A DNA stretch of 64,000 bases from a virus (Duplodnaviria; Heunggongvirae; Uroviricota; Caudoviricetes), in the IMG/VR virus record IMGVR_UViG_2913177423_000001, positions 1-64,000 of that record. One strand, given 5' to 3'. This document shows positions 8,606 to 60,008 of the stretch, piece after piece (position 1 is the first letter of the stretch; each line of letters begins with the position of its first letter). The translations under genes were made by a program, and so were the position numbers. The notes below the pieces were generated by a model, which was given only the letters and a program-made list of their open reading frames with translations, searched no databases and was not told where the DNA came from.

Positions 8606-8615
8606 CTGCCATATG

Positions 8616-8632
8616 AAATTAAATTTCTAACA
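8616..8632 (-). promoter_or_regulatory. C1-like operator motif copy
   Basis: AAATTAAATTTCTAACA, reverse complement of the recurrent TGTTAGAAAATTAATTT motif. Confidence 0.5.
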
Positions 8633-8720
8633 TAGTGTATTTATATACACTGTTGATCCTGTCCGATGTGATCGAGTAGGATCGCGGTCACTGCTCCGGT
8701 AGCGACTGCCAAAAAAAAGC

Positions 8721-8746
8721 AAAAGCCGCTGAGAAGCGGCTTTTTG
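8721..8746. terminator. bidirectional intrinsic terminator
   Basis: GCCGCT-gaga-AGCGGC hairpin flanked by A-run upstream and T-run downstream. Confidence 0.7.
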
Positions 8747-8748
8747 GT

Positions 8749-8776
8749 GTATAAATCTACGGACATAGATTTATAC
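8749..8776. promoter_or_regulatory. perfect 11-bp inverted repeat, candidate operator
   Basis: GTATAAATCTA-cggaca-TAGATTTATAC immediately upstream of gene 8806..9768. Confidence 0.4.
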
Positions 8777-8805
8777 GGTAGATAGATTTTTCACGGAACT
8801 ATCTG

Positions 8806-9768
8806 GTGAATATTTTAAATTCAGTTTCAGTAACTTTCAACACTTCTGAGTATAAAAACAACACTGAATACCACAAAAAAATCAAAGGTCATCAGTTGAG
8901 TTTTTTTGCTCGCCACTGTGGTTTTCTTTCCCCTTCACATAGCGCCATTATTGCCGAGTTCGCCAACCTGGCAGGGGCTACCGATGAATACATGATCCGT
9001 CGCTCATATGCCGATATGTCAGATATTACGGGACGCAGTATTTCAACTGTACGCCGGGCATTTGCTGAAGCGACGAAGTGTGGAATGCTTGTTAAACAAC
9101 ACCAGGTGGCGAATAACAATGCCCAGGTTTGTAACGTATATCGGTTTACAACACAATTTCTCCACTTCATTCATGTTGCAATGGAGATCGGGGGTAAGCA
9201 GGGCATTAAATTTGCCAACGCAACAAAACTGGTTAAGCAGTTGATTTCAAAGGTTCGTTATTTTTTTGAAACTGGGAACCCCCTGTTCAAATTGAACAAG
9301 TCCCCCCATGTTCAAAATGAACAGCCAATAGAAAATAAGAGTAAACCCATAACCAAAAGAAGAGAAAGATCATGCGCGGTTCAGCCGAAGGCTTCACCAG
9401 CAGATAGTTCTCAAGCGGGTAATGGCTTACTGGATAAAAAACCAGTGATTAGAGAAGAGCATGTCAACCACAGCCTGGCTGCGGCAAAAGCGAGAGCTGC
9501 AAAGCGTCGTTCAGACGAGGGCTATGCAAAACAACAGGCTCTGTATCGTACCGCTGAAAAGCTGGCAAAAAAATTTGCATGGATACGTAATGCAGCTGCC
9601 GCAGTGAATAAGCCCAAACCATCCAGTGCTCTGGATTTCTCTATGGATTATTCTGGCTATCAGGGATGTAAAACAGTTGCTGAAGCCTTTGAACTGATGA
9701 AACAGCGTGGCTATCAGTCTGAATTTGACCGTGAAGATTGGTCAGTTCCAGCGGGCTTCAGAGGATGA
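8806..9768 (+). CDS. winged-helix DNA-binding protein, possible regulator or replication initiator
   Basis: 320-aa ORF with GTG start; HTH-like segment DITGRSISTVRRAFAEATKCGMLVK; basic C-terminal region. Confidence 0.4.
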   Translation: MNILNSVSVTFNTSEYKNNTEYHKKIKGHQLSFFARHCGFLSPSHSAIIAEFANLAGATDEYMIRRSYADMSDITGRSISTVRRAFAEATKCGMLVKQHQVANNNAQVCNVYRFTTQFLHFIHVAMEIGGKQGIKFANATKLVKQLISKVRYFFETGNPLFKLNKSPHVQNEQPIENKSKPITKRRERSCAVQPKASPADSSQAGNGLLDKKPVIREEHVNHSLAAAKARAAKRRSDEGYAKQQALYRTAEKLAKKFAWIRNAAAAVNKPKPSSALDFSMDYSGYQGCKTVAEAFELMKQRGYQSEFDREDWSVPAGFRG

Positions 9769-23811: not shown

Positions 23812-23888
23812 GGTGGTGTAGCTCAGTAGGATAGAGCAGCAGCCTTCTAAGCTGTCGGTCGGTGGTTCGAATCCACTCACCATCGCCA
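23812..23888 (+). tRNA. tRNA-Arg (anticodon UCU)
   Basis: cloverleaf readable by eye: acceptor GGTGGTG/CACCATC, D-arm GCTC-AGTAGGATA-GAGC, anticodon loop CTTCTAA, T-loop TTCGAAT, encoded CCA. Confidence 0.8.
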
Positions 23889-23892
23889 AATT

Positions 23893-23968
23893 GCCGATTT
23901 AGCTCAGTTGGTAGAGCAGTCGCTTTGTAAGCGAATGGTCAGCGGTTCGATCCCGTTAATCGGCACCA
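23893..23968 (+). tRNA. tRNA-Thr (anticodon UGU)
   Basis: acceptor GCCGATT/AATCGGC, D-arm GCTC-AGTTGGTA-GAGC, anticodon loop TTTGTAA, T-loop TTCGATC, encoded CCA. Confidence 0.8.
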
Positions 23969-23970
23969 AC

Positions 23971-24036
23971 ACAACAGGTAAGGGCATTCTCCCTTATGGG
24001 GCTTGGCTTAAATGCATCGAGTGCTCTTACCGTTGT
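23971..24036 (+). repeat. structured hairpin element of the tRNA island (copy 2)
   Basis: arms ACAACAGGTAAGGGCA and TGCTCTTACCGTTGT directly after tRNA-Thr. Confidence 0.45.
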
Positions 24037-24182
24037 GATGAAGTGCAGCTCTTTGAAGCAACCAGAAGATAAGCATCTGGCTTCACAACATAAACCGCAG
24101 GAACGACCAATAAACGGTAGTCCGTATGGCGAACACCCCGTTGAGGAAGAGGCCTGGCCGGAACCGTAACCGGCACTACAAC

Positions 24183-24260
24183 GTTGAGAGCATTGGCGTA
24201 ACGGGGTCATATCCCAATCTATGAATAAATGTTGCGTTGCAGCGTGACAACCAGTGTTTT
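24183..24260 (+). repeat. degenerate copy of tRNA-island element with T-arm-like minihelix
   Basis: GGGGTCATATCCCAATCTA and TTGTGGTGAATGC shared with the copy at 24854. Confidence 0.35.
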
Positions 24261-24386
24261 CAACATTGTGGTGAATGCACAGGCTGATGTGCCGCAACTA
24301 CAGTAGTGCGCGCTTTGCGGGGCTTGCTACAACCCTGTGTCGGAGTTCAGCGCCGACCATCACAATTTATTTAGAAACTGTCATCC

Positions 24387-24800
24387 ATGAGCGCGAGAAC
24401 AGTAATTATGCAGAAAGAGCAGTTTGTTATTTCTCTAGTGGTTAGCACCAGTTATCAGGTCGATAAAGTTTCGAAAGAAAGCGTACCTGAAATTGATGTT
24501 GTCGATGTGTTCGGCAATGAACTCAAAATACCACTTCGTGAATTTAATGAAATAGCAGCTCCGTTGGGCAAAATTGAAGGCCTGGAAGAATACCACAAGC
24601 GGATGATTATCGAGCGCGCCCAACTATGCCAGCGCATAAATAAGCTGGTTAGATTTATCGGAACAGATAACTTTCTCGCCATCGGCTTGGACAGTCAGTT
24701 GGAATTACAAAATCAGCTCGAAAGCATGATTGAGTATCGAAAAGCTCTTGATTCGCGGTTGATTAAATTAACCGAATATGACCCATCAGTAAGCGGTTAA
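24387..24800 (+). CDS. hypothetical protein (137 aa)
   Basis: ATG at 24387; AT-rich ORF embedded in the tRNA island. Confidence 0.45.
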   Translation: MSARTVIMQKEQFVISLVVSTSYQVDKVSKESVPEIDVVDVFGNELKIPLREFNEIAAPLGKIEGLEEYHKRMIIERAQLCQRINKLVRFIGTDNFLAIGLDSQLELQNQLESMIEYRKALDSRLIKLTEYDPSVSG

Positions 24801-24853
24801 TTATAAATTTGGGGCGGATGGTTAGTCCGCCGTTAACTCCATGAAACGGAGTA

Positions 24854-24932
24854 CGCAACAGGTAAGAGCATTCTCCTGTAACGGGTTCATATCCCAATCT
24901 ACAGGTCCACCAAGAATGCTCTTTCCGTTGCG
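24854..24932 (+). repeat. structured hairpin element of the tRNA island (copy 3)
   Basis: 20-bp arms CGCAACAGGTAAGAGCATTCT and AGAATGCTCTTTCCGTTGCG; loop carries GGGTTCATATCCC. Confidence 0.45.
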
Positions 24933-24979
24933 GTGAATGCGGCTAAGCGCACGCGGAACAGTTAAAACAATCTTCCTTA

Positions 24980-25303
24980 ATGTTTAAGTCAAACATCCCG
25001 GCGTTAATTGTTAACTGGTTAACGTCACCTGGAGGCACCAGGCACCGCAATCTAATAAAGTTTCAAGCAATGGAGTTTTTGTTGTCAGACTACAGATATA
25101 GATGGTTGTGGAAGAATATCCTGTCCATATTCAAGTTTTTTCTTCCGCTATTTGTCTGCTTTGTCATGCTTCCTGAGCTGAAATACGCAATTTCAGACAC
25201 CTTAAGCACTATCGTTACTTTTGTGTTTTATCTTTACTTTGATTACTTATTGAGCACTAAAATCTATGAATTATCCGATGAAATGCAAGGTGGCTGTAAG
25301 TGA
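24980..25303 (+). CDS. small hydrophobic protein (107 aa)
   Basis: ATG at 24980; predicted TM helices; AT-rich. Confidence 0.35.
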   Translation: MFKSNIPALIVNWLTSPGGTRHRNLIKFQAMEFLLSDYRYRWLWKNILSIFKFFLPLFVCFVMLPELKYAISDTLSTIVTFVFYLYFDYLLSTKIYELSDEMQGGCK

Positions 25304-25440
25304 TGAATTTTTGGGCGTTTGCCGATAAGAACCCTGGTTGGACATTTTTATTTCTGCTGGTGGTTGCATATGGGGTCGAGCAAGCGGCAAAAGCCTTACG
25401 CGGTTCTGGCAAAAAGCGTAAGCGGAATTGACAGTAATCT

Positions 25441-25516
25441 GGCCCCTTAGCTCAGTGGTTAGAGCTGGCGACTCATAATCGCACGGCCATCGGTTCAAAT
25501 CCGGTAGGGGCCACCA
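25441..25516 (+). tRNA. tRNA with CAU anticodon, probably tRNA-Ile2 (lysidine) rather than Met
   Basis: acceptor GGCCCCT/AGGGGCC, D-arm GCTC-AGTGGTTA-GAGC, anticodon loop CTCATAA, T-loop TTCAAAT, CCA; 5-prime half resembles enterobacterial ileX as recalled. Confidence 0.75.
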
Positions 25517-25702
25517 TATTTGGTTGTAACACGGCGTCTGGCACATGCGTCGTTAGCGGTCTGGTGACGTTAAAGGGATTCCCTCCCTCGCTTAGGCAAA
25601 CAAATCAGGTAGCCGGAATGTGCAAGCCACCGTTTAGTTCTTTCTCGGATAAAGGGGCTCACCACCCTGGCGACGCGGTGTGACAGCCGGAAGAGCACGG
25701 CG

Positions 25703-25750
25703 CACAACAGGAAAAGGCGTTTAATTAGCGTGAGCGCCGTTTCCGTTGTG
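25703..25750 (+). repeat. structured hairpin element of the tRNA island (copy 4)
   Basis: arms CACAACAGGAAAAGGCG and CGCCGTTTCCGTTGTG. Confidence 0.4.
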
Positions 25751-25972
25751 GTAATTGCGGCTATGCGCTCGTGACGAAGCCATTTTCATTCATTGCGGTT
25801 CTGATAAGTGTCGTCGCCGGGCGTGGCTGACCTGGCAGGTGGAGGCACCACCGCCACAACTCCTTTCAATTCATCATATAGCCGCTCAGGCTGTAACCCT
25901 TAATTAATACGAAGTTTCGACATCTCTATCGGTTTAACCGAGGGATGGTCGCGCGTGTAAAAAGGAGACGTT

Positions 25973-26548
25973 ATGTTAACGGCGAACGATAACGCGTATG
26001 CAGAAGCAGATCTCATATTGAGTGACTTCATCGGTCAGCGGGAACGCTGGACACAAAAGCGAGAGGAACTTTATGCCTCGTTAGTTCGCAAAGGTGTCAA
26101 CATTGAAACCGCTCAAAGCGGCGATATGACGGTAGTCAGTGTTGGATTACATGGTGTGAGCGTGTCCGCAGCCAATCATGAGCCATACGTAGCGTTATCC
26201 GAGTCGATGGCAAGGCTAATTAAGTTTCTGAAGCAAACAGAAGCCAATAATGTTTTCATCGCCAAAAAGAACATCAATTTTTCTGCCGCCGTGTTCTGGA
26301 TGATGAAGGGGCTTGACGCCCGCCGGGCATCATGGCCTAAAGGGAGCTATATGTCGATGTTCCGTGGCAGTATTGGCAGTAAAGAAAAGCTCGTCGAATT
26401 CCTGCCGGAAGAAGCATTCGATATTGTGGAAGGGTGCGATGTGATGGTTATGCCTCGCCTGGTAATGATGAATGGAGATTTACAGGCACAGACAGACTGG
26501 TTCGCCACTGGCGTGGATATTATCGCGACTGACTGGGAGGCATTCTGA
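25973..26548 (+). CDS. protein with C-terminal DUF2829-like (Tad2-like) domain
   Basis: ATG with AAGGAG upstream; C-terminal AAVFWMMKGLDARRASWPKG and DWFATGVDIIATDW fit the DUF2829 pattern. Confidence 0.45.
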   Translation: MLTANDNAYAEADLILSDFIGQRERWTQKREELYASLVRKGVNIETAQSGDMTVVSVGLHGVSVSAANHEPYVALSESMARLIKFLKQTEANNVFIAKKNINFSAAVFWMMKGLDARRASWPKGSYMSMFRGSIGSKEKLVEFLPEEAFDIVEGCDVMVMPRLVMMNGDLQAQTDWFATGVDIIATDWEAF

Positions 26549-26940
26549 TGTACGAGACTACAAAATTAAGCATTCATGAAGCCACCAATATGGAGTGGAA
26601 TATCGTCACCTGTAAGATTGTATCGTGTAATGCTGCGCGTACTGATGCAGGCCATAAGAGCACGATAACAGGCTACATGGTAATGGCTTATAGGGGATTG
26701 AGAGTTCGCTTTATCTGGAAAGCTCGGCAATTGACACCATTCAGAGAGCCGTCAATGCCATTAGAGGTAGAACAGGATTATTTAAGCCTGCCGGAAATAG
26801 ACGGTGCAACGCTGGTGGATTCTGATGGTCGTAAGGCTGATTTTGAAGTCAGCTTAAAGGTGGCGCAGGCCGTAATTAATAACTCACGTGGTAAGTGGAT
26901 CGCTAAGGTAAAACACGTCGTTCGCTTATCTCGCTGGTAA
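26548..26940 (+). CDS. hypothetical protein (130 aa)
   Basis: ATGA-coupled to the upstream gene. Confidence 0.5.
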   Translation: MYETTKLSIHEATNMEWNIVTCKIVSCNAARTDAGHKSTITGYMVMAYRGLRVRFIWKARQLTPFREPSMPLEVEQDYLSLPEIDGATLVDSDGRKADFEVSLKVAQAVINNSRGKWIAKVKHVVRLSRW

Positions 26941-26970
26941 TGTTAGATAAATGGAATTAATTTTCTAATA
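26941..26970. promoter_or_regulatory. overlapping inverted pair of C1-like operator motifs
   Basis: TGTTAGATAAATGGAAT on plus strand overlapping GAATTAATTTTCTAATA on minus strand; upstream of gene 27049 and the terminase genes. Confidence 0.5.
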
Positions 26971-27048
26971 TAGCTAACTTTTTGCCAGTCTATACAGAAA
27001 TAACATTCTCATTATCATCCCCTCGGTCATTTCCTGCCTGGGGGATTA

Positions 27049-27441
27049 ATGGAGCATATCAGCAGCGCAGAAATTGCGGATATCATGATTAGGGCTGACT
27101 GCTATCTGACAGTCACCGAAATCACCACTCTCGCTAAAGAAAAATATCCTCACCTTCATGTTTCACGCGTAAGTGTAACCAACATCATTCGGCATTTTGT
27201 GCGGTCAAGCCGAGCTATTTGTGAGCTTGATGATCGTGTTTACCCACGGAAATACTGGTTGCATGGCCTGAACGGATATCAGTTCAAGGTGCGCGGGCGT
27301 ACCCCTGAATACGGCAGTTTGCTGGTTAAAAACTGTAGCAGGAAGTCTGCCGAACTGGCGCGACAAGAGCAGCGCGAGCTGGTGGACATGGCTAATAAGC
27401 TGTGGAATGCCGCAGTTAAAAAGCGTGGTGTTGCTTTATGA
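27049..27441 (+). CDS. hypothetical protein, late-promoter-activator (Lpa) candidate by position only
   Basis: 130-aa ORF directly upstream of small terminase gene and downstream of an operator pair. Confidence 0.35.
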   Translation: MEHISSAEIADIMIRADCYLTVTEITTLAKEKYPHLHVSRVSVTNIIRHFVRSSRAICELDDRVYPRKYWLHGLNGYQFKVRGRTPEYGSLLVKNCSRKSAELARQEQRELVDMANKLWNAAVKKRGVAL

Positions 27442-28802
27442 GCCTGGTTAATTGGGAAGAGCACCGCGCCAAATTTATAGCGTTGCGTGAAGAAAAAGGG
27501 ATCACCGTAAAGGAATACTGCGAGCAACACGACCTTAGCTTCAATACCGCCAGAAAGCATCTCAATATGAAAAAAAATGAGGTGCGGTCGCAGGTGAAGA
27601 CTACAAAAAAAAGCACCAAATCACCTGAAAAAAAACGGGCAGGAAGAGCAAAAAAAAGGCCAGAAGAGGGTACAGAAACAACAAAATTTACAGAAACTGA
27701 CAATTCACAGAGCGGAAGTTCTTTCCGGAGCATGCCGAGAAAGAAAACTTCGGATCATAAAAATAACGACAATAATAACAATGAGATAAAAGAATCTGTC
27801 AGGAGATCATTGCGCGAAAAAATGGCGAAAATGATCCCCGCCGAAGATAAATGCGCCTCAAAAACCGAGGGATCTTCAGCAATGATCCCTGGCGGTGCTG
27901 TGCAGCGTGCCACGTTGCCCACTACGAGTGTGGCTCGCGACATGATGAAGAACGGCGCAGAAGAGCACCTGCGGTTAGCAATTCAAATGGCGCAAGAACG
28001 CGCACTTCAGTACCAAAGCATTGTTGATCAGGAGGCCGAACGCCTACAGGCGGAGATAGACGCCCTGGGTGATGAACAGCCAGAAGGAATGCACCCTGGG
28101 CAGCGACTTCTCGGTCTAATCAGTGACGCGGCCTACTACATGAACGATTTTATCAGTAGGTTGGCAGCGATATATCAGTCCGAACAAAAGCTGCGACAGG
28201 GTGATGAAAAACTTCGTCAGGGTGCTCGCCAGCAAGCATTCAGAGAGGCCGAGGCCAGAGAAAAACTCGAATTAGCACGCCTACAGGCCGAACAGCGCGG
28301 CAAAGAGATTGAATATCGAATTGGCGCTGACGCACGCGCAGCCAGAGTTATCGCCGCCGCTATACGTATGCGTGAGCGCGAGGAACTGGACGATATCGGT
28401 GTTGCTGAATACATCGAGCGTCAGGGTGTCAGTGTCCCGGCTATCCTCGCGGCGCGCGCGGCAAAAGCTATCGATCTTCTCGAACCGCCAGTTTCTGACA
28501 TCAATGATGTTGATGATGAACAGCTGGACAAAGAGGCAAGGGAGTATGCATTGCTTCAGGCAAACCATTCTCAATGGCTGGCAGAGCGCCGGGCAGATGT
28601 GGCTACCATTGTTGAAGACCTGGGGTGCGGAGATTACGACAGCAATGGCGAGCGTAAGGCTGGGGAATTCGAGGCCAACGACGAAGAGTTAGATATTGAC
28701 CCTTCGGCAACGGCTGAAATTTACGGTGATTATGATGCATCAGACGTAGGGTATGACGCCGGAGATGATGATATCGCGATAGAACCTCCGGAGGACGATT
28801 AA
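27438..28802 (+). CDS. terminase small subunit, PacA-like
   Basis: 454-aa ORF ATGA-coupled to the large terminase; N-terminal HTH-like region, basic low-complexity stretch and acidic C-terminus. Confidence 0.6.
   Translation: MSLVNWEEHRAKFIALREEKGITVKEYCEQHDLSFNTARKHLNMKKNEVRSQVKTTKKSTKSPEKKRAGRAKKRPEEGTETTKFTETDNSQSGSSFRSMPRKKTSDHKNNDNNNNEIKESVRRSLREKMAKMIPAEDKCASKTEGSSAMIPGGAVQRATLPTTSVARDMMKNGAEEHLRLAIQMAQERALQYQSIVDQEAERLQAEIDALGDEQPEGMHPGQRLLGLISDAAYYMNDFISRLAAIYQSEQKLRQGDEKLRQGARQQAFREAEAREKLELARLQAEQRGKEIEYRIGADARAARVIAAAIRMREREELDDIGVAEYIERQGVSVPAILAARAAKAIDLLEPPVSDINDVDDEQLDKEAREYALLQANHSQWLAERRADVATIVEDLGCGDYDSNGERKAGEFEANDEELDIDPSATAEIYGDYDASDVGYDAGDDDIAIEPPEDD
27753..27887. other. 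candidate pac site (GATC cluster inside small terminase gene)
   Basis: five GATC sites within 135 bp (27753, 27805, 27833, 27871, 27884), analogous to the methylation-sensitive hexamer repeats of the P1 pac site. Confidence 0.35.
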
Positions 28803-30310
28803 TGGCTGGCGGGCGCAAGATTAAATGCGTCACCAGCGATCCACGCTGGCGCGATTGGGTAATCAAATACCGCTACAACTTTACCAAGGCTGTTATTGAT
28901 ATTTTTGGATTGTTTCCCTCACCTCAGCAGCAGGAGATTATCCAGTCCGTACAGCAAAAAGGGAGCAGAACCACTGTTACCTCTGGTCACGGTACAGGGA
29001 AATCGTCGTTAACGGCTATGTTGTTGCTGATTTATTTGATTCTGTTCCCCGATGCCCGTGTCATCATTGTTGCTAACAAGATAGGCCAGGTTAAAACAGG
29101 CGTATTCAAATACGTTAAACAGTATTGGGCGAATGCAGTTAAGCGTCACGGGTGGTTACAGACCTATTTTGTCCTGTCTGACACCATGTTTTATGAACGT
29201 TCCCGCAAAGGGATCTGGGAAGTTCTCTGCAAAGGTTATCGACTCGGTAACGAAGAAGCACTGGCGGGGGAGCACGCGGCACATTTGCTTCTAATTCTGG
29301 ATGAAGCATCAGGTATATCTGATAAAGCGATCGGCGTAATGACTGGCGCTCTGACTGAAGAAGATAACCGAATGTTGATGCTATCCCAGCCAACAAGGCC
29401 AAGTGGTTATTTCTACGATTCGCACCATTCTCAAGCTAAAACCCCAGACAACCCGAAAGGGATCTGGACAGCAATTGTTCTTAACTCAGAAGAATCACCG
29501 TTCGTCACACCACAATTCATCAGGCAGAAACTCCTGGAATATGGCGGTCGCGATTCTATTGAGTACATGGTTAAGGTGCTTGGTCAGTTCCCTCGGGAGA
29601 TTAACGGCTATTTGCTTGGTCGTGATGAATGCGATCGCGCAGCGCGGCGCAAGGTGTTGTTGGAGAAAAACTGGGGATGGGTGGCAACAGCTGACGTTGG
29701 TAACGGGCGAGACAAGTCAGTTCTTAATATCTGTAAAGTGTCTGGTCACCGGGAAAAGCGGCGTGTTGTTAACTTTAAGATAATGGAAATGCCAGGGACT
29801 ATGGACCCGCTGGCTTTTGCTGACTTTATATACAACGAATGCACGCCGGATAAATACCCGAATATTACAATCGCGGTTGACGCTGATGGTTTTGGTTCAG
29901 ATACCTGTGCGCAGTTGGTGCGCCGTGGTGCTAATCCGGTACGTATTCGGTGGGGGAAACCCATGTTTTCGAACAAAGACAAGGAGCGTTTTGTTAACCA
30001 GCGTGCCTACGCAAATATTATGGCTCGTGATGCCATAAAGTCAGGCCGTATGCGTATAGACAGTGACCCTAAAACGGCAGAGCAAGCGTCAAAAATCCCT
30101 TTTTTACTGAATGAAGAAGGGAAGATGGCGATGATGCGCAAAGAGCACATGCGGCAAAAGCTAAACATCAAATCGCCTGACCGATGGGATACCTACTGCT
30201 TCACTATGCTGGTGGACTATGTGCCTGCAAATGAAGATATCGGTGCGGAAATGGCTACCTTCCGCGACCAGGTTCTTGCAGACATAGAAATGCCGGATCT
30301 GGATATATAA
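28802..30310 (+). CDS. pacB: terminase large subunit, PacB-like
   Basis: Walker A TSGHGTGKSS, Walker B LLLILDEAS, 502 aa with C-terminal nuclease-size domain. Confidence 0.85.
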   Translation: MAGGRKIKCVTSDPRWRDWVIKYRYNFTKAVIDIFGLFPSPQQQEIIQSVQQKGSRTTVTSGHGTGKSSLTAMLLLIYLILFPDARVIIVANKIGQVKTGVFKYVKQYWANAVKRHGWLQTYFVLSDTMFYERSRKGIWEVLCKGYRLGNEEALAGEHAAHLLLILDEASGISDKAIGVMTGALTEEDNRMLMLSQPTRPSGYFYDSHHSQAKTPDNPKGIWTAIVLNSEESPFVTPQFIRQKLLEYGGRDSIEYMVKVLGQFPREINGYLLGRDECDRAARRKVLLEKNWGWVATADVGNGRDKSVLNICKVSGHREKRRVVNFKIMEMPGTMDPLAFADFIYNECTPDKYPNITIAVDADGFGSDTCAQLVRRGANPVRIRWGKPMFSNKDKERFVNQRAYANIMARDAIKSGRMRIDSDPKTAEQASKIPFLLNEEGKMAMMRKEHMRQKLNIKSPDRWDTYCFTMLVDYVPANEDIGAEMATFRDQVLADIEMPDLDI

Positions 30311-30335: not shown

Positions 30336-31373
30336 TTACCAGAGTTTGGCGGCGCGCTGTGTTTGGGAGAAAGTGAACCCGTAACGTTCTTCTATGGTTT
30401 TACCGTATCTTTTACGGGCATCTGTCAGTTTTATGCCCGTAAGGTCATCTCCGGACATCATCATTACGTCTATTAACTCCAGATCCATTTTATTCAGTCT
30501 CGCCATTGCTTCGCGCGCAGTTTGTATTTTACGCTCAATGATATGGCGAATAGCCGGATCGGCTTCTTCAAGCATTTTGGTCGATTTGTTCTTTAAGCTC
30601 TCACTGCGGATATCGATGTTCCGCAAGATGTATGACTTCGCAACATAGCTTGGTTGGTGCTTCTCCAGATCGCGAACGCGATAAAGACTAAAATCACCAA
30701 TCAGGCCACAAGGTATCGACTCGACCCCAGAATAAATAGTAATGCTGCGACGTTCGCCGACATTATTAACAACGGGTACTGTGGTATCCGGAAGTTTTGC
30801 GAAAACTAAGGCGCCATGTGCGCCGACCCTGAATCGTGACAGAGTATTGCTGTCTTCGATGTTTGTTGTCAGCACGACATCTGTATATCCCTCTTTGCGC
30901 GCCCGGTAAATTTCACCTTCAGGTTCCGCCGCAAAAAAGCGGCGCTCTTCTTCAAGCGCCCCAACAATTTGTGAAAAAATCTTGTTTTTCAGGCTCTTCT
31001 TAATAATTGCGTCATACTTTTTGAGCAAATTTTCGCGTGTAAATGAGCGAGTAGTAGTCGCGCTTTGCACAACAATATGCGTGCTTTGATTCGTGTCCTC
31101 TATGATGATTGGGATCGGAGAATATACAGACTCAACAATGTTAGACGCTTTGCCGTCGGCATTACGGCACAAGTCAACAAAGGCTTTCCATTCTGCGAGG
31201 CACTTTTCAGCTTCTTCTAGTACATTCTGGTCATGCGTTAGTGCAACGTGGCGGAATTCCTCGCCAGCATAACTGGTATCATGGAAAACAGAGTTTGCGA
31301 CCACCAGCTCTTTCCACCGTTCAGCGGTTTGCAGGAACCGTTTGTACTCTTTCTCGATCGACTTCTTACTCAT
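30336..31373 (-). CDS. hypothetical 345-aa protein; C1-like immunity repressor candidate by position
   Basis: convergent with large terminase and preceded by operator-like motifs, as for P1 c1; no sequence-level confirmation. Confidence 0.35.
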   Translation of the reverse strand: MSKKSIEKEYKRFLQTAERWKELVVANSVFHDTSYAGEEFRHVALTHDQNVLEEAEKCLAEWKAFVDLCRNADGKASNIVESVYSPIPIIIEDTNQSTHIVVQSATTTRSFTRENLLKKYDAIIKKSLKNKIFSQIVGALEEERRFFAAEPEGEIYRARKEGYTDVVLTTNIEDSNTLSRFRVGAHGALVFAKLPDTTVPVVNNVGERRSITIYSGVESIPCGLIGDFSLYRVRDLEKHQPSYVAKSYILRNIDIRSESLKNKSTKMLEEADPAIRHIIERKIQTAREAMARLNKMDLELIDVMMMSGDDLTGIKLTDARKRYGKTIEERYGFTFSQTQRAAKLW

Positions 31374-31562: not shown

Positions 31563-31579
31563 TTCCTAATTTTCTAACT
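31563..31579 (-). promoter_or_regulatory. C1-like operator motif copy
   Basis: TAATTTTCTAAC core within the intergenic region between the repressor candidate and cre-like gene. Confidence 0.4.
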
Positions 31580-31758
31580 TTAGATAATTGGCATTATTTA
31601 AAGTTAGTATATAATAATGATCAAACGATCAGTATTGACAGACTCAAAAAGTCATGGTTCGAATCAAGGGCTTAAATTTTAAATTCTCACGGATAACTAG
31701 CCTGTCATTTTTTGTTTTTTCGCGTAGCGACACCAATTTATAGAGGTGAAATGATTAC

Positions 31759-39522: not shown

Positions 39523-39784
39523 TACTTAACCTCTGAAGCCATTCAGCTAATTTCAACATGGCTTCTCTTTCGCTTAAACCACGCGGAAAATCATCAAGCG
39601 AAATTGCTGGCTTGATGATCCCCGAATTATCCATTTCAACGGTCAGATTTTGCTCCAGCACGGTATTCCTTACGCGGCTATTGTGCCGAAGCAAATATAC
39701 TGAACGTGATTTATTGGTTTTGTGGTCGAACGTATATTCGGTAAGTATCATCTGGCTTCCGCCATGATTATTACCGCGCCACAT
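39491..39784 (-). CDS. hypothetical protein (97 aa)
   Basis: ORF in leftward operon. Confidence 0.4.
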   Translation of the reverse strand: MWRGNNHGGSQMILTEYTFDHKTNKSRSVYLLRHNSRVRNTVLEQNLTVEMDNSGIIKPAISLDDFPRGLSEREAMLKLAEWLQRLSIVIEDNWSQP

Positions 39785-39796
39785 AATTACTCCGTG

Positions 39797-40213
39797 TTAA
39801 TAAGAGAAATAGACCGTTGCAACACTGTTATATTGGTCGAACGAAATAGCATTTACTTCATAGCTGGTGGGCAGCTTCTTACCAAGAATGTAGCCTGGCC
39901 ATGAGTTCCACGGAATTTCTGCACGGTCGTCGTCTTGCCACATTACGCAACCAAGAGAGCCAACCATTTCACCATATCGCTTGCCACAAGTAACAAAGCC
40001 GATATTCGGCTTTTCTTGTGTTACTGATACCGTGGTGGTATTGGCAGATGCATTGATTGCAGTACGCCGCGCTTGCTCGCTAGCGATAGAAGCATTTACT
40101 GCCGCCGTGGTCGCTGCTGTTGCCGCCGCTCCAGCGGCAATAACTGACGCGTGGGATAAATGACTGGCTGATAACATAGCCAGAAAAATAATAGCTCTTT
40201 GAAATTTAGCCAT
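39797..40213 (-). CDS. secreted protein with signal peptide (138 aa)
   Basis: N-terminal signal sequence MAKFQRAIIFLAMLSASHLSHA followed by Ala/Thr-rich region. Confidence 0.45.
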   Translation of the reverse strand: MAKFQRAIIFLAMLSASHLSHASVIAAGAAATAATTAAVNASIASEQARRTAINASANTTTVSVTQEKPNIGFVTCGKRYGEMVGSLGCVMWQDDDRAEIPWNSWPGYILGKKLPTSYEVNAISFDQYNSVATVYFSY

Positions 40214-40487
40214 TGATATTCACCTTTATTGCGTACACCTTTACCGGATTCTCTCCAAAGTGCGGATGTGTAATTGTCTTTATTTCATACCCTTCATACG
40301 GGACGTCTATTCTGCGACTGGAGTCGTCGCGCTTCGGATATCCCCTTGTGATAATCAGGCGGTCATACTCCCGGAACATAATTCGCTTATTCCAGTAGTC
40401 ATTACACAGGCGATACTCTTCCGTTTTCTCTCCGCGAATGATGGCATCGAAGTATTCACCTTTAACGGCAAGTTGCAGGTTAGCCAC
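40206..40487 (-). CDS. ASCH/PUA-like small protein
   Basis: GTG at 40487 preceded by AAGGAG; GEYFDAIIRGEKTEEYRL pattern resembles ASCH domain proteins. Confidence 0.4.
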   Translation of the reverse strand: MANLQLAVKGEYFDAIIRGEKTEEYRLCNDYWNKRIMFREYDRLIITRGYPKRDDSSRRIDVPYEGYEIKTITHPHFGENPVKVYAIKVNING

Positions 40488-40989
40488 GGTTAACTCCTTG
40501 CTGTGTGGCGTCGAGTAATAAATCCCACAACCGCTGAGAGCAATTTCCGCATGTACAGCGTTGACCCACAACGTTTATCGCGTTGCTGATTTCCGGCGTT
40601 ACCTGTTTAGGAACCATAACCCAACCATCCGGAGTTACCGGAGAGTTGCGCATTGCGACCTTTAATGCCTCATAGAAGCAACTTTTCAGATTGTTGAACT
40701 GACGCCCATTTAGAGGGCCGTGTTCAGTCAGCATGTTGTGTAATTTCCATGCCGCGTCGTTTACTTCGTTGGATGACAGGGGAGGCAGCTTGTAAGCCTG
40801 GCTTACAGGCTCGTCACCATTAAGCATGGCAGCGCGGAGTTTCTGTATCTCCCGTGCCATTATTGCGTCCTGACGAGGAGTGAACATATCACCTGCAATA
40901 ATTCTGTTTAGTTCCTCGTCAGTGAACTCATAATCATCAGGAACATTGTTAACCTCAGCATAAAGAGGCTTTTTGGTAGAAATGGTCAT
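40480..40989 (-). CDS. hypothetical protein (169 aa)
   Basis: ORF in leftward operon. Confidence 0.5.
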   Translation of the reverse strand: MTISTKKPLYAEVNNVPDDYEFTDEELNRIIAGDMFTPRQDAIMAREIQKLRAAMLNGDEPVSQAYKLPPLSSNEVNDAAWKLHNMLTEHGPLNGRQFNNLKSCFYEALKVAMRNSPVTPDGWVMVPKQVTPEISNAINVVGQRCTCGNCSQRLWDLLLDATQQGVNRG

Positions 40990-41612
40990 CGTAAAACACC
41001 CTCCACACTTACCAGTCCGTTCCGCAAAAGATAATCCATCGCCCTATCTGGTAATTTGCAATCAGGTTTTGCTTTTTTCAGTTGGCTGACCAATTGTTTA
41101 ACCAGCATTGTTAATTCGATAACCTGGTAGCGCGGCAATGGTGAATTATCGGATTTGTCCTGACTGTCTGCGCTGCATGAATGCCCTTCCAGCCAAGCCA
41201 ATGCTTGTCGCATGAAATACGCAATATGTTTGCCGTGGTAATCGTCTTCATCGATGTGAAAAGCGATACTGCGGATGTATTCAATTGCGTTTTCAATGGC
41301 CTCCGGCGTTATCGGCGCTGACATATTTTGATTTTGGAATGCCAAGACGCGGCTGGCATCCTCAACACCTTTAACTGCATCTGCGCAGTAGTTATAGCGA
41401 TTGCATTCCACTAACTTCTGCTTGAGATTTTCAATTGCTTGCGCGATTTTATCCGGCACTGGCGGTTCTGCCCGGCCTTTCCAGCCTTCCCACATGGCAG
41501 CCATCATCACGAACCAGGTGTTTCCACAGCCATCTTTTTTGTTATCAAAGAACCAGTCAGCGAACTCTAGGCTCATGCCATTTTGTTCTGCTATTTCATA
41601 TCGATTATCCAT
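40986..41612 (-). CDS. hypothetical protein (208 aa)
   Basis: ATGA-coupled ORF. Confidence 0.5.
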   Translation of the reverse strand: MDNRYEIAEQNGMSLEFADWFFDNKKDGCGNTWFVMMAAMWEGWKGRAEPPVPDKIAQAIENLKQKLVECNRYNYCADAVKGVEDASRVLAFQNQNMSAPITPEAIENAIEYIRSIAFHIDEDDYHGKHIAYFMRQALAWLEGHSCSADSQDKSDNSPLPRYQVIELTMLVKQLVSQLKKAKPDCKLPDRAMDYLLRNGLVSVEGVLR

Positions 41613-41627
41613 TGTTCATCTCCTTGT

Positions 41628-41909
41628 TTAGCATGGCGGCGCGGCGTATAGCTTACGGGTCTGAACGCCTTCCCCAAGGCGTTTCTCTCCCTCGGCAAAC
41701 CATTCGAAAGCACATTCCCCGCAATCTTCCCATTCCCCCCATTCATCATTTTCTGCATCCCACTGGCGATACTGATATGCCACAGGCTCTGCTCCCAGCG
41801 ATGCCAGCGCAATTTCATAAGCACGGCGCTCAATATTGTCTCTAACGTCCAGGCTACCGATTCGCTCTTTGATTTCTTTAATCAGTTCTTTGTCTGTAAA
41901 AGTGTTCAT
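41628..41909 (-). CDS. hypothetical acidic Trp-rich protein (93 aa)
   Basis: ORF in leftward operon. Confidence 0.45.
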   Translation of the reverse strand: MNTFTDKELIKEIKERIGSLDVRDNIERRAYEIALASLGAEPVAYQYRQWDAENDEWGEWEDCGECAFEWFAEGEKRLGEGVQTRKLYAAPPC

Positions 41910-41912
41910 AGG

Positions 41913-42101
41913 TTATCCTCTAAGTGCCACAACGCGCACTTCCGGGTCAAAGGATGATGAATTTTCATCTGTAATATCAGCGACATGGACTACGAAATCG
42001 TTATAGTCACCCTCTGATTGGTCATAGCCCTGCCAGACCACGACAGCCTCAGGAGGCATTTTTCTGAGCTTGCTGATTAACTGCCTCACTGTCAGTGACA
42101 T
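41913..42101 (-). CDS. hypothetical small protein (62 aa)
   Basis: internal ATG at 42101 removes overlap with the upstream gene. Confidence 0.35.
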   Translation of the reverse strand: MSLTVRQLISKLRKMPPEAVVVWQGYDQSEGDYNDFVVHVADITDENSSSFDPEVRVVALRG

Positions 42102-42102
42102 A

Positions 42103-42657
42103 TCACTCTCCTTTGATGCGAATGCCAGCGGCGCGGATAGATTTCCATTGTTCCCACATTCGGTTGAAGTCTGTGCCTGATAAGGTTGCGTTACGGTATC
42201 CAGTTTCGGTACGCAATCCTTCAAGCGTCGATTTGGAGATACAAATTGAATGCATTACCCATGATTCAAACAAATCACGCTCCCGAGCTTCGCAACTTTG
42301 CTTACTCATATATTCGATACGATCAGCCATCGCAGCGCACTCTTCAAAGTTGCTAAATGCCTTTCGCTCCCATTCAGCGCATTGTTTTCTAAGCTCTGCA
42401 ATCAGCTTGTCTTTGCCTTCCAGCTCAACGCGCAGCTTCCCTACCGTTAGCGCAATATCCTCATTCTCCTGATCGCGGTGTTTGATGTATTGCTGGTTTC
42501 TTTCCCGTTCATCCAGAAGCGCTAGCACAATGTGTGGCGTTATCAAGGACTCAAATTCGGTAACAGCTTGCTCACCTCGCTTGTAATTCTTAATCCCACC
42601 TAAATTTTTCGCGTTCTGTGCCGCCTCACGCAGTGCCTGGTAATTAATTTCGCTCAC
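42103..42657 (-). CDS. coiled-coil protein, member of a three-gene paralog family
   Basis: shares the L-VELE-K-IAEL coiled-coil motif with 42654..43361 and 43681..44382. Confidence 0.5.
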   Translation of the reverse strand: MSEINYQALREAAQNAKNLGGIKNYKRGEQAVTEFESLITPHIVLALLDERERNQQYIKHRDQENEDIALTVGKLRVELEGKDKLIAELRKQCAEWERKAFSNFEECAAMADRIEYMSKQSCEARERDLFESWVMHSICISKSTLEGLRTETGYRNATLSGTDFNRMWEQWKSIRAAGIRIKGE

Positions 42658-57540: not shown

Positions 57541-58446
57541 ATGAGATCTGTCGCTTTCAAAAACATCTTCATCTATCGTCTTTCACGTGAAGTTAACTGG
57601 AGTGCCGCAGAAGTATCCGATGCTCTTAGCAAATTCGTGTTTACTCCTTGCGGTTCTCAGGACACAGCTAAAGTCGGTTGGACACCTGTTCTTGGTGACA
57701 ACCTCACCCATGAATACCAGGGTTTTCTGCTAATACAGCATAAGCGAGAAGAAAAAATTCTCCCTTCGCAGGTGCTCAAGGAAGAGTTGCAGAAAAAAGT
57801 CCTGAAACTCGAAGAAGAGCAAGCACGCAAGCTGAAGAAAACGGAAAGAGACAGTCTTAAAGATGAAGTCCTGCATTCCCTTTTGCCTCGCGCGTTCACG
57901 AGAAAATCACTCGCCAAAATCCTGATCGACCGCAGCAACCATCTGGTATTCGTTGAGGCAAGCAGCGCCAAAAAGGCAGAGGATCAGCTGGCTTTATTGC
58001 GAAAATCGCTCGGCAGCCTGCCCGTCATTCCATTCACACCACGCGAACCGCTGGAAATCACAATGACCGAGTGGTTTAAAAACGGCTTCCCTGCCGGATT
58101 CACAGCAGGTGAAGATGCCACATTAAAGGCTCTGTTTGATGATGGTGGTGCCGTTCGCTGCAACAAAGTTGATCTACAGTCCGACGAGATTATGTCTCAC
58201 ATTGAGGCGGGGAAAGTAGCTACGACCGTTGCAATTAACTGGATGGACCGCGCGTCGTTCAGAGTAAACGATGATATGAGTATCAAAGCCCTGACATTCT
58301 GTGATGATCTCTATGACCAGAATGACGATATCGACCGGGAGGATGTAGCACAACGATTTGATGCTGATTTCGTGCTCTTTACGGGCGAATTATCTGCACT
58401 GTTTAACGCGCTGGTGGAGGCCATTGGCGGTGAAGCAGAACGATAA
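57541..58446 (+). CDS. rdgC: RdgC-like recombination-associated protein
   Basis: 301 aa; colinear with bacterial RdgC including [33 protein letters not shown] and [20 protein letters not shown]. Confidence 0.8.
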
Positions 58447-59110
58447 TAACCGACCGCTTGTTGTGAGTGTGTGTGATTTTACGGGGGGAATGGTTGCCCC
58501 CTGGCTGGAATACGGTGTCGATGCCGCTATCGTCGATCCACAGCACTTATCGACCAGTGACGAGCTGATGCAATCAGGTGCCGTTCTGACGCGTATTAGT
58601 GCGATCATCGATAGCGATGAAGTATACGCTTTTCTCCGTAAGAATTTGCAGCGCATCGTGTTTCTGGCCGGGTTCCCACCGTGTACTGACCTGGCTGTTT
58701 CCGGCGCGCGCTGGTTTTCGGACAAGGCTAATAAAGATCCGGTCTTCCAGTTCAAAGCAATGCAGGTTGTCTGGCAGTGTTATGACATTGCAAAGATGAT
58801 CGGTTGTCCGTACATGATTGAAAATCCGGTCAGCAAAATATCGACATTCTGGCGTAAGCCAGATCACATCTTTCACCCTTACTTCTTCACTGCATATTGT
58901 CAGGAAGATAACTACACCAAAAAAACATGCCTCTGGAGCGGCCAGGGCTTTGTCATGCCTGATGCCCTAATGGACGAATCATTAGGCAAGCCAGATAACA
59001 GAATCCATGCCGCGCCACCAGGGCCTGACAGGGCTAATTTTAGAAGTGCTACTCCACATGGATTCGCAAAGGCAGTTTTCGAAGCGAATAAGGGGGTGCT
59101 CTATGAGTAA
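58430..59110 (+). CDS. short C5-cytosine methyltransferase-like protein
   Basis: GTG at 58430 after GGAGG; motif I-like CDFTGGM, catalytic PPC motif [15 protein letters not shown]-like MIENP; lacks a normal target-recognition domain. Confidence 0.5.
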
Positions 59111-60008
59111 ATCTATAGCAAGCATAGCCATAGAAAAACGGGATACGATGGCTGAAATTAGCTATATGCGCACCATTCGGACTCCGGATGAATATGAGCG
59201 TCCGATCTTCAAATGGGTAGGTGGTAAATTCTCAGAATTGCCTACAGTGCTTGAGCATCTACCACACGGCAAGCGGTTAATAGAACCGTTCGTTGGTGGC
59301 GGTTCCGTATTTACGAATGCAGGATTTCGCCACAACCTGCTTAATGATATTAACGGTGACCTGATTAACTTCTATCAGACATTGCAGCGGGAAGGACATT
59401 CGCTCGTCACGCTGTCATATAGTTTTTTCAAAAATTACAACAACGCTGACGCTTACCTCGAAGTGCGTGAGGCATTTAACAGAGGAAAGTATGACCAGCT
59501 ACATCATGCTGCCGCCTTTTTGTACCTTAATCGGCACTGTTTTAATGGCGTAACACGGTACAACCAAAATGGCGATTTCAACGTGGGGTATGGCAAATAC
59601 AAAGCGCCCTACTTCCCACATGCAGAGATGGAGGCGTTTTTGGCTGATGACGTACTCAAAAACACATCCTTTGTATCAGGTGACTTTGCTGGCGTCATCG
59701 AGGCGGCTGGTGAAGACGATGTGATTTTTTGCGATCCGCCGTATGAACCGCTGCCGGATACAGAGGGATTTACCAGCTATTCAGGAAATAGCTTCCGTTT
59801 CGATGAACAAAAAAGGCTTGTATCACTGTTGGTGGCTGCCCACCAGCGCGGCGCGAAGGTAGTGATAACAAACAGTGGCGCGCCCAAAATTCGCGAATTG
59901 TACGAAAGAAACGGTTTTAAGCTGTACCACATGCCAGCCAGACGGTCCGTGTCATGCAAAGCATCCACGCGAATAGTCGCTAACGATATCATTGCAACGC
60001 TCAAATAG
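59103..60008 (+). CDS. dam: Dam-family N6-adenine DNA methyltransferase
   Basis: ATG at 59103 overlapping upstream stop; FKWVGGK, FVGGGSV and DPPY motifs. Confidence 0.85.
   Translation: MSKSIASIAIEKRDTMAEISYMRTIRTPDEYERPIFKWVGGKFSELPTVLEHLPHGKRLIEPFVGGGSVFTNAGFRHNLLNDINGDLINFYQTLQREGHSLVTLSYSFFKNYNNADAYLEVREAFNRGKYDQLHHAAAFLYLNRHCFNGVTRYNQNGDFNVGYGKYKAPYFPHAEMEAFLADDVLKNTSFVSGDFAGVIEAAGEDDVIFCDPPYEPLPDTEGFTSYSGNSFRFDEQKRLVSLLVAAHQRGAKVVITNSGAPKIRELYERNGFKLYHMPARRSVSCKASTRIVANDIIATLK

What the first reader, a model, noticed from the sequence alone, without database searches (positions are those of the whole stretch)
27753..27887. GATC-dense stretch inside the small terminase gene, candidate pac site
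Five GATC sites occur within 135 bp in the PacA-like gene, far above the expected density. In P1 the pac site lies inside pacA and consists of clustered GATC-containing hexamers whose Dam methylation controls cleavage. The element also encodes its own Dam (59103-60008).
Basis: partly seen in the sequence, partly recalled or inferred. Interest (0 to 1): 0.45.

Follow-up and report, generated by a model that had tools for sequence, protein, structure and literature searches.

The report
Candidate packaging site of D6-like phage-plasmid
Five Dam-methylation (GATC) sites packed into 135 bp of the small-terminase gene of this D6-like phage-plasmid are held fixed across diverged relatives, so they are very probably its DNA-packaging start signal: a rearranged version of the known phage P1 pac site, not a new kind of element.

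Summary
Five GATC sites lie at 27753, 27805, 27833, 27871 and 27884, inside pacA (27438-28802) of an element about 92% identical to phage D6. Within this window alone the cluster is only weakly unusual: it is the densest 5-site cluster, but the scan P is about 0.07-0.27. Comparison with relatives is what gives it weight.

- **Conservation in the D6 clade.** The pacA linker is only about 61% identical in DNA between lineages, yet all five GATC sites are invariant in position (P about 2.5e-5). They are kept through rare codons and Gly/Arg swaps, which points to constraint on the DNA rather than the protein.
- **Family-wide pattern.** Across 15 P1/D6-type lineages, GATC is 4.6-fold enriched in pacA nt 130-480. 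No other 4-bp palindrome is enriched there.
- **Context.** The element encodes a Dam-family methylase, PacA and PacB homologues, and a rox site 3.7 kb downstream. This mirrors the pac-to-lox layout of P1.
- **Differences from P1 pac.**
  - The core is TGATCC/GGATCA, not TGATCA/G.
  - There are five elements in alternating orientation, not a 4+3 arrangement around a roughly 96-bp spacer.
  - No IHF consensus site was found.

Verdict: a well-supported candidate pac site and a variant of a known kind. Cleavage and methylation dependence were not tested.

The parts
27438..28802 (+). pacA (small terminase / pacase A subunit, 454 aa). It carries the GATC cluster in its variable linker, aa 106-150.
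   Evidence: ORF. 92.8% nt identity to D6 pacA. phrog_1711 terminase E=1.6e-174. Colinear with P1 PacA at 20% identity, E=7e-9. No Pfam or PDB match.
27751..27757 (+). Element 1: CGGATCA (GATC 27753-27756), core GGATCA in forward orientation.
   Evidence: Invariant 7-nt run across window, D6, L004, L005 and L006. Encodes Asp-His, always with GAT.
27757..27804 (.). A+T-rich spacer (about 75% A+T) between elements 1 and 2, with a conserved ATAACA at 27775-27780. One possible place for bending or cleavage; this is inference only.
   Evidence: Sequence. ATAACA (pacA nt 338-343) is invariant in the D6 clade. No IHF consensus at up to 1 mismatch.
27805..27811 (+). Element 2: (A)GATCATT (GATC 27805-27808), forward orientation. 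It forms a 10-nt inverted repeat with element 3.
   Evidence: Invariant run GATCATT. Inverted repeat I3, 27802-27811 / 27830-27839, 90% complementary. The rare codon AGA or GGA is always used, with an Arg/Gly swap. Lost (GATC to GACC) in 1 of 27 D6-clade loci, L042.
27829..27838 (+). Element 3: AAATGATCCC (GATC 27833-27836), the same element in reverse orientation (GGGATCATTT on the minus strand).
   Evidence: Invariant 10-nt run, the longest in the linker. Also present in the more distant L007. Lost in 1 of 27 loci, L046.
27870..27875 (+). Element 4: GGATCT (GATC 27871-27874), forward orientation. It reads GGATCA or AGATCA in other D6-clade lineages.
   Evidence: GATC is invariant and the flanks vary. 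L004 has the perfect palindrome GGGATCATT-GCA-AATGATCCC with element 5. Gly/Arg swap with GGA/AGA.
27881..27889 (+). Element 5: AATGATCCC (GATC 27884-27887), reverse orientation, 51 bp from element 3.
   Evidence: Invariant 9-nt run. Direct repeat D2 with 27830-27843, spacing 51.
28802..30310 (+). pacB (large terminase / pacase B subunit, 502 aa), the presumed nuclease-ATPase partner.
   Evidence: 56% identical to P1 PacB over 488 aa. Terminase_6N and phrog_2 large-terminase hits.
59103..60008 (+). Dam-family N6-adenine DNA methyltransferase, the presumed modifier of the five GATC sites.
   Evidence: TIGR00571 dam 247.7 bits against a cut-off of 114.85; PF02086 E=5.9e-56. GATC specificity is inferred from family membership and was not tested.
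31575..31606 (.). rox-like recombination site, 3.7 kb downstream of the cluster. This is the same order as pac-pacB-c1-lox in P1.
   Evidence: One mismatch to the annotated D6 rox. In P1, pac cleavage at 90804-90813 lies 4.0 kb from lox at 94784.

Best explanation
The 135-bp cluster (about 27751-27889) is most likely the packaging-initiation (pac) site, or its recognition core, of this D6-like phage-plasmid.

Proposed mechanism, by analogy with P1:
1. Late in lytic growth the PacA/PacB pacase binds the five GGATCA/TGATCC elements through PacA. PacA has a conserved N-terminal helix-turn-helix-like region, including a recognition-helix-like 'NTAR+xL' segment shared with P1.
2. The pacase cuts concatemeric DNA within or next to the cluster.
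3. Headful packaging then proceeds rightward through pacB, c1 and rox. The first headful therefore carries rox in its terminal redundancy, which allows cyclisation by Dre.
4. Adenine methylation of the five GATC sites, by the element's own Dam and the host Dam, is proposed to gate cleavage. Fully methylated sites would be cut, while hemimethylated, pacase-bound sites would be protected. This would limit cutting to about one pac per concatemer.

What is shown: the sites exist, they lie in pacA, they are under DNA-level purifying selection, the whole family keeps GATC clusters at this place, and Dam, PacA, PacB and rox are present.

What is inferred: binding by PacA, the position of the cut, the direction of packaging, and methylation dependence.
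For: 1. Conservation against a diverged background. In window, D6, L004, L005 and L006 the linker (pacA nt 142-525) is about 61% identical between lineages and only 12% of its 4-mers are invariant. All five GATC sites are invariant (permutation P=2.5e-5). Four of the nine invariant runs of at least 6 nt in the linker are centred on GATC.

2. DNA-level rather than protein-level constraint. At sites 368 and 434 the amino acid switches between Gly and Arg, but the codon is always GGA or AGA, which make up 13% and 11% of Gly and Arg codons elsewhere in these genes. Ile is always ATC (41% usage).

3. Of 27 D6-clade loci (17 distinct sequences), 25 keep all five sites.

4. Family-wide pattern. Fifteen lineages (Escherichia, Enterobacter, Pantoea, Serratia, Xenorhabdus, Citrobacter, Buttiauxella, Rosenbergiella, P1) carry 96 GATC in pacA nt 130-480 against 21 expected (4.6-fold). 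The next palindromic 4-mer reaches 1.5-fold.

5. In P1 the same part of pacA holds the experimentally mapped pac. GATC hexamers lie at nt 195-229 and 325-348, flanking annotated cleavage points at nt 276-285. The site is a 161-bp pac with seven TGATCA/G repeats that carry Dam sites (PMC10028697).

6. A Dam-family methylase is encoded.

7. PacB is 56% identical to P1 PacB, and PacA is colinear with P1 PacA.

8. rox lies 3.7 kb downstream, compared with 4.0 kb from pac to lox in P1.

9. The cluster is the only place in the window where three or more TGATCC/GGATCA hexamers fall within 140 bp.
Against: - There are no packaging-end, cleavage or methylation data for this element or for D6 in anything I could read. 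The D6 genome paper (Gilcrease & Casjens 2018) is not held.
- Within the window alone the cluster is not a significant outlier.
- None of the five hexamers matches P1's TGATCA/G.
- The arrangement is not 4+3 around a roughly 96-bp spacer.
- No IHF consensus is present, although the same scan recovers P1's annotated IHF site.
- There is no detectable nucleotide homology to P1 pac.
- The nearest out-clade relative, L007, has an additional left-hand GATC triplet (nt 157-181) that the D6 clade lacks. The D6 cluster could therefore be only one arm of an ancestral bipartite site.
- Two natural variants each lack one site.
Confidence: 0.65

Rival explanations
1. The cluster is a PacA-binding or methylation-sensing regulatory part of the packaging system, but the cut site or essential pac sequences lie outside 27753-27887. 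Cleavage might occur upstream in the linker, or an additional unrecognised arm might be required.
For: L007, the closest relative outside the D6 clade, has two separated GATC groups (nt 157-181 and 380-471). P1 and the Pantoea and Serratia types are bipartite, with cleavage (in P1) in the GATC-free spacer. The D6 cluster aligns only with L007's right-hand group. Other invariant DNA runs exist upstream in the linker: AATTTACA at nt 248-255 and TGACAA at nt 261-266.
Against: No second GATC group exists in D6-clade pacA apart from a single site at nt 63 inside the conserved N-terminal domain. The five-site cluster spans 135 bp, close to the 161 bp of the complete P1 pac. The upstream invariant runs encode a conserved 'FT.TD' peptide, so they may reflect protein constraint.
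Confidence: 0.17
2. The cluster is a Dam/SeqA-type methylation-sensitive regulatory element unrelated to pac recognition. It might time expression of pacA or pacB, or sequester newly replicated DNA.
For: Clustered GATC sites are classical SeqA and Dam-regulation targets (established knowledge). Same-orientation elements are spaced 51-52 bp apart, about five helical turns. A weak promoter-like match lies on the minus strand at 27781-27754, overlapping site 1.
Against: The promoter-like count equals the shuffle expectation (2 found, 2.1 expected), and the match is antisense to pacA. Conservation extends beyond GATC to an 8-10-nt asymmetric element (AAATGATCCC, GATCATT), which indicates a sequence-specific protein rather than SeqA or Dam alone. 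In P1 the homologous location is experimentally the pac site.
Confidence: 0.1
3. There is no DNA-level function. The GATC sites are a by-product of conserved peptide motifs (Asp-His, Gly-Ser, Met-Ile-Pro) in PacA, or a chance cluster.
For: Within the window the cluster is not statistically exceptional. The sites coincide with recurrent dipeptides and tripeptides, DH, GS/RS and MIP.
Against: - Synonymous positions are fixed on rare codons, and Gly/Arg replacements preserve the GATC.
- The surrounding peptide is poorly conserved, with indels, and is mostly low-confidence or coil in the single-sequence model.
- Enrichment is specific to GATC among the 16 palindromic tetramers across 15 lineages.
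- Relatives with unrelated linker peptides still carry GATC clusters.
Confidence: 0.05

Closest known systems
Bacteriophage P1 pac site (Sternberg & Coulby 1987-1990; Skorupski et al. 1992, 1994; annotated in NC_005856)
   Same: - It lies inside pacA, in the variable region just after the N-terminal DNA-binding-like domain.
- It is a cluster of GATC-containing hexamers spanning about 140-160 bp.
- The phage encodes a Dam-type methylase.
- pacB follows, then the c1 repressor, then the site-specific recombination site about 4 kb downstream.
   Different: - Hexamer TGATCC/GGATCA (TGATCY) instead of TGATCA/G (TGATCR).
- Five elements, not seven.
- The elements are asymmetric and alternate in orientation (forward, forward, reverse, forward, reverse). 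Gaps are 52, 28, 38 and 13 bp, instead of 4+3 groups with 7-15-bp spacing around a 96-bp spacer.
- No IHF consensus site.
- No nucleotide similarity outside the hexamers.
- PacA is only 20% identical.
Phage D6 (MF356679 / AY753669) pacA region
   Same: All five GATC sites lie at identical pacA positions. The first 663 nt of pacA, which contain the cluster, are 96% identical, and the gene order lpa-pacA-pacB-c1-rox-dre is the same.
   Different: Neither D6 record annotates a pac feature. The window differs by scattered substitutions between the elements, none within them. Whether the D6 pac has been mapped experimentally could not be checked, because the paper is not held.
pacA GATC clusters of other P1/D6-supercluster plasmid prophages (for example Pantoea pEuc3 L009, Serratia L014, Enterobacter pJBIWA008_2 L007)
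   Same: GATC clusters lie in pacA nt about 130-480. They are usually the densest GATC cluster of the locus, and PacB is 61-86% identical.
   Different: Those lineages have P1-like TGATCA arrays with a 12-bp period (up to seven in a row, encoding 'GDH/SDH' repeats) plus a smaller downstream group. The D6 clade has no 12-bp array and uses TGATCC.

Membership tests
P1-type pac site | Located within the pacA (small terminase) coding sequence, just downstream of the N-terminal domain | tested here: met
   The cluster is at pacA nt 316-450 (aa 106-150). P1 pac hexamers are at pacA nt 195-351.
P1-type pac site | Multiple copies of a hexamer containing the Dam site GATC | tested here: met
   Five GATC-centred elements, conserved across the D6 clade.
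P1-type pac site | Hexamer consensus TGATCA/G, seven copies | tested here: not met
   0 of 5 hexamers match TGATCA/G on either strand. The consensus is TGATCC/GGATCA (TGATCY), in five copies.
P1-type pac site | Bipartite 4+3 arrangement flanking a roughly 90-bp spacer that holds the cleavage points | tested here: not met
   Gaps are 52, 28, 38 and 13 bp, so no spacer exceeds 52 bp. The P1 gap is 96 bp, with cleavage annotated at nt 276-285.
P1-type pac site | IHF binding site in the central region | tested here: inconclusive
   No WATCAANNNNTTR match at up to 1 mismatch in nt 140-520 of window, D6, L004, L005 or L007. The same scan recovers P1's annotated site. IHF sites are degenerate, so absence of the consensus does not prove absence of binding.
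P1-type pac site | Cleaved by PacA+PacB pacase to start headful packaging | not testable with these tools
   PacA and PacB homologues are present. No virion-end or cleavage data are available.
P1-type pac site | Cleavage regulated by adenine methylation of the GATC sites | not testable with these tools
   A Dam-family methylase is encoded at 59103-60008. The methylation state and its effect are unknown.
D6-like plasmid prophage (element as a whole) | Nucleotide similarity and synteny with phage D6 around lpa-pacA-pacB-c1-rox | tested here: met
   91.8% identity over 3.4 kb and the same gene order, with the rox site present at 1 mismatch.

The most novel reading that the evidence does not exclude
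The D6 clade may use a structurally distinct pac. It would be a compact, non-bipartite site, possibly independent of IHF, built from asymmetric TGATCY elements arranged as converging pairs (elements 2/3 and 4/5 form inverted repeats) that would suit PacA dimers. The cut position and DNA architecture could then differ from P1.

Together with the family survey, this would mean that pac architecture and PacA turn over quickly inside the linker while PacB stays conserved: 96%, 86% and 56% PacB identity against 73%, 55% and 20% for PacA. Related phage-plasmids such as P1 and D6 would then have mutually exclusive packaging specificities.
Probability: 0.3. Interest if true: 0.5.

Novelty: new variant of a known kind. 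Interest (0 to 1): 0.35.

Why it matters
D6-like phage-plasmids are widespread. This exact region occurs on plasmids in 81 of 5,426 complete E. coli genomes and in Salmonella, Shigella and other Enterobacterales. No open paper or public annotation I could read marks their packaging signal.

A defined pac would have practical uses:
- building D6-based phagemids and transduction tools, as has been done with P1 pac;
- predicting which DNA these elements mobilise;
- recoding the helper so that it cannot package itself.

On the biology side, the family comparison shows a cis-acting DNA signal embedded in a coding linker that dictates part of the protein's sequence (DH, GS and MIP motifs). It also shows pac/PacA specificity evolving much faster than the PacB motor. 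This is an incremental advance on a well-known mechanism rather than a surprise.

Tried and rejected
- **Window-only statistics.** The uniform simulation, Poisson scan and comparison with the other 15 palindromic tetramers show that the cluster is not a significant outlier by density alone. I therefore did not rest the case on density.
- **Nucleotide or tblastn homology to P1 pac or pacA.** None was found in the phage collection. Only the three D6 records matched. The relationship to P1 PacA is visible only in a direct pairwise BLASTP.
- **IHF consensus scan.** Negative in the D6 clade.
- **Promoter and terminator scan of 26900-28900.** Counts equal the shuffle expectation, so there is no support for an internal-promoter role.
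- **Motif elsewhere in the window.** AATGATCC and TGATCC are not enriched elsewhere, so there are no secondary sites.
- **Pattern scan of viral contigs.** I searched GATCATT-N18-AAATGATCC to look for contig ends near the site. It returned 72 mostly unrelated chance matches and was uninformative.
- **Contig-end clue.** One IMG/VR contig (L041) starts exactly one base after GATC site 1. With about 66 contig ends, roughly 0.1 such events are expected within the cluster by chance, so I do not count it as evidence.
- **Literature.** The D6 genome paper (Gilcrease & Casjens 2018, PMC5800970) is not held. Open-access D6-like papers mention pacA only as a PCR marker. I therefore cannot exclude that the D6 pac has already been described.
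- **PacA in Pfam, NCBIfam and PDB.** No hits.
- **Single-sequence AlphaFold model of PacA.** Low overall confidence (pTM 0.26). I used it only as a weak hint that aa 59-110 and 133-162 are disordered.

Full report
**What the window is**

The region around the finding is 91.8% identical over 3.4 kb to Escherichia phage D6 (MF356679, AY753669) and has the same gene order:
- lpa, 27049-27441
- pacA, 27438-28802
- pacB, 28802-30310
- c1, 30336-31373, minus strand

A rox-like site with one mismatch to the annotated D6 rox lies at 31575-31606. The window is therefore part of a D6-like plasmid prophage. The same 251-bp stretch occurs on plasmids, never on chromosomes, in 81 of 5,426 complete E. coli genomes. 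PacA relatives occur on 140 plasmids from nine genera.

**Checking the observation**

Five GATC sites start at 27753, 27805, 27833, 27871 and 27884, which is pacA nt 316, 368, 396, 434 and 447.

- The window holds 236 GATC sites (3.7/kb), no more than shuffles give.
- The 135-bp cluster is the tightest 5-site cluster; the next independent one spans 331 bp.
- On its own this is not compelling. Random placement gives at least 5 sites in some 135-bp window 27% of the time.
- The Poisson estimate corrected for windows is about 0.07.
- Other palindromic tetramers reach 4-7 per 135 bp somewhere in the window.
- Against the local A-rich composition only 0.39 sites are expected.

So the sites are there, but density alone would not justify a claim.

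**What makes it real: comparison with relatives**

I fetched pacA regions from plasmids, IMG/VR contigs and GTDB genomes.

Within the D6 clade, three diverged lineages are available: window/D6, L004, and L005/L006. PacA is 69-75% identical between them.
- The linker DNA (pacA nt 142-525) is only about 61% identical between lineages, and just 12% of its tetramers are invariant.
- All five GATC sites are nevertheless invariant and at identical positions (permutation P=2.5e-5).
- Four of the nine invariant runs of at least 6 nt in the linker sit on them: CGGATCA, GATCATT, AAATGATCCC and AATGATCCC.

The constraint is on DNA, not protein.
- At sites 368 and 434 the residue switches between Gly and Arg, but the codon is always GGA or AGA. 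These make up 13% and 11% of Gly and Arg codons elsewhere in these genes.
- Ile is always ATC.

Of 27 D6-clade loci, 25 keep all five sites. L042 and L046 each lost one through GATC to GACC.

Across 15 lineages of the wider P1/D6 family, GATC is 4.6-fold enriched in pacA nt 130-480 (96 observed, 21 expected). No other palindromic tetramer exceeds 1.5-fold.

In P1 itself the same zone contains hexamers at nt 195, 202, 214 and 229, and at nt 325, 337 and 348. They flank the annotated pac cleavage points at nt 276-285 and an IHF site. This matches the published description of a 161-bp pac with seven TGATCA/G Dam-site repeats (PMC10028697).

**Anatomy**

The conserved unit is an asymmetric 8-10-nt element. 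It reads GGGATCATT in one orientation and AATGATCCC in the other, with core GGATCA/TGATCC.
- Orientations run forward, forward, reverse, forward, reverse, with start-to-start gaps of 52, 28, 38 and 13 bp.
- Elements 2/3 and 4/5 form inverted repeats. In L004 the 4/5 pair is the perfect palindrome GGGATCATT-GCA-AATGATCCC.
- The two reverse-orientation elements, 3 and 5, are 51 bp apart. The first two forward elements, 1 and 2, are 52 bp apart, about five helical turns. The third forward element, 4, lies 66 bp from element 2.
- The spacer between elements 1 and 2 is about 75% A+T, with a conserved ATAACA.
- The cluster falls in PacA aa 106-150. This segment is variable and rich in indels, and largely low-confidence in a single-sequence structure model. 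The N-terminal three-helix region (aa 6-57) is modelled with pLDDT 72-88 (this is weak evidence).
- In relatives with 12-bp TGATCA arrays, the DNA signal visibly writes 'GDH/SDH' repeats into the protein.

**Supporting context**

- A Dam-family methylase is encoded at 59103-60008 (TIGR00571 above cut-off).
- PacB is 56% identical to P1 PacB.
- PacA is colinear with P1 PacA at 20% identity and belongs to phrog_1711.
- rox is 3.7 kb downstream, compared with 4.0 kb from pac to lox in P1.
- This spacing is compatible with the P1 logic, which is established knowledge rather than something tested here: the first headful carries the recombination site in its terminal redundancy.

**How it most likely works**

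The cluster is probably the pac recognition site. The proposed steps are:
1. PacA binds the five elements.
2. PacA/PacB cuts nearby.
3. Headful packaging runs rightward.
4. The Dam methylation state of the five GATC sites gates cleavage, as in P1.

Only the existence, position and selective constraint of the sites, and the presence of the protein partners, are shown. Binding, cut position, packaging direction and methylation dependence are inferred. My confidence is about 0.65.

**Differences from P1 and the membership tests**

- No hexamer matches TGATCA/G.
- There are five copies, not seven.
- There is no 4+3 bipartite layout around a long spacer.
- There is no IHF consensus, although the same scan finds P1's site.
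- There is no nucleotide homology.
- L007, the nearest out-clade relative, has an extra left-hand GATC triplet with 12-bp spacing (nt 157-181), in addition to a right-hand group homologous to the D6 cluster. The D6 clade has either lost one arm or consolidated the site.

It therefore works like P1 pac in all likelihood, but it fails two sequence-defined criteria of that site. I file it as a variant rather than a member.

**Rival explanations**

- The cluster is only the binding or regulatory arm, and cleavage lies outside it (0.17).
- It is a Dam/SeqA regulatory element unrelated to pac (0.10). The extended asymmetric conservation argues against this, as does a promoter scan at chance level.
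- It is a protein-motif by-product or a chance cluster (0.05). The codon evidence and the GATC-specific family-wide enrichment argue against this.

**Limits**

- No virion-end data are available.
- The D6 genome paper could not be read, so prior description of a D6 pac cannot be excluded.
- The lineages are related, so the permutation P values overstate independence.

**Verdict**

This is a well-supported candidate pac site: an architectural variant of the P1 paradigm, useful for engineering and for understanding packaging specificity in phage-plasmids, but not a conceptual surprise. Interest is 0.35.

Noticed in passing
window 8606-8805 (GATC at 8655, 8670, 8680): Three GATC sites within 29 bp, the tightest 3-site cluster in the window. 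They lie in an intergenic region next to a terminator-like hairpin (about 8716-8746) and short 'tagattt' iteron-like repeats, upstream of ORF 8806-9768, which has no Pfam match. This could be a replication-origin-like, methylation-sensitive region.
   Followed up: partly
window 39621-42320: A 2.7-kb stretch with no GATC at all, and only two sites between 39617 and 43791, despite normal G+C of 0.45-0.47. About 10 sites would be expected. The stretch carries minus-strand phage genes of unknown function. A second GATC-free stretch of 2.06 kb (23953-26008) adjoins and partly covers the tRNA cluster.
   Followed up: partly
L041 position 1 (IMGVR_UViG_2537562191_000021): This 23.6-kb contig begins exactly at pacA nt 320, the base after GATC site 1, and runs towards pacB, which is the direction in which P1 packages. 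It is a single case, and roughly 0.1 such coincidences are expected, so it is a curiosity rather than evidence.
   Followed up: partly
window 58358-60008: The Dam ORF matches only the C-terminal part (positions 510-777 of 779) of PHROG 116, a long DNA methyltransferase family. An overlapping upstream 250-aa ORF (58358-59110) has no family hit. This may be a split or rearranged version of a larger fused methyltransferase.
   Followed up: no
window 27438-27441: lpa overlaps the pacA start by 4 nt. P1 has an 85-bp lpa-pacA spacer carrying the late promoter LPpac. Transcriptional control of pacA must therefore be organised differently in D6-type elements.
   Followed up: no
pacA/pacB of window compared with L005, L007 and L003: PacA diverges far faster than PacB: 73% against 96%, 55% against 86%, and 20% against 56% identity. 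The type of GATC array changes with PacA, which is consistent with co-evolution of the recognition subunit and its site.
   Followed up: partly
L009, L011, L035-L039, L048-L051 (Pantoea and Enterobacter plasmid prophages), pacA nt 154-237: Six or seven TGATCA hexamers sit at an exact 12-bp period and encode repeated 'xDH' tripeptides in PacA. The array is more regular than in P1 itself.
   Followed up: partly
window 31575-31606: The rox-like site differs from the annotated D6 rox by one base, A to G, in one arm.
   Followed up: no
window 23812-23968 and 25441-25516: Three tRNA genes are present: Arg-TCT, Thr-TGT and Met-CAT. D6 is annotated with a tRNA in the homologous neighbourhood.
   Followed up: no
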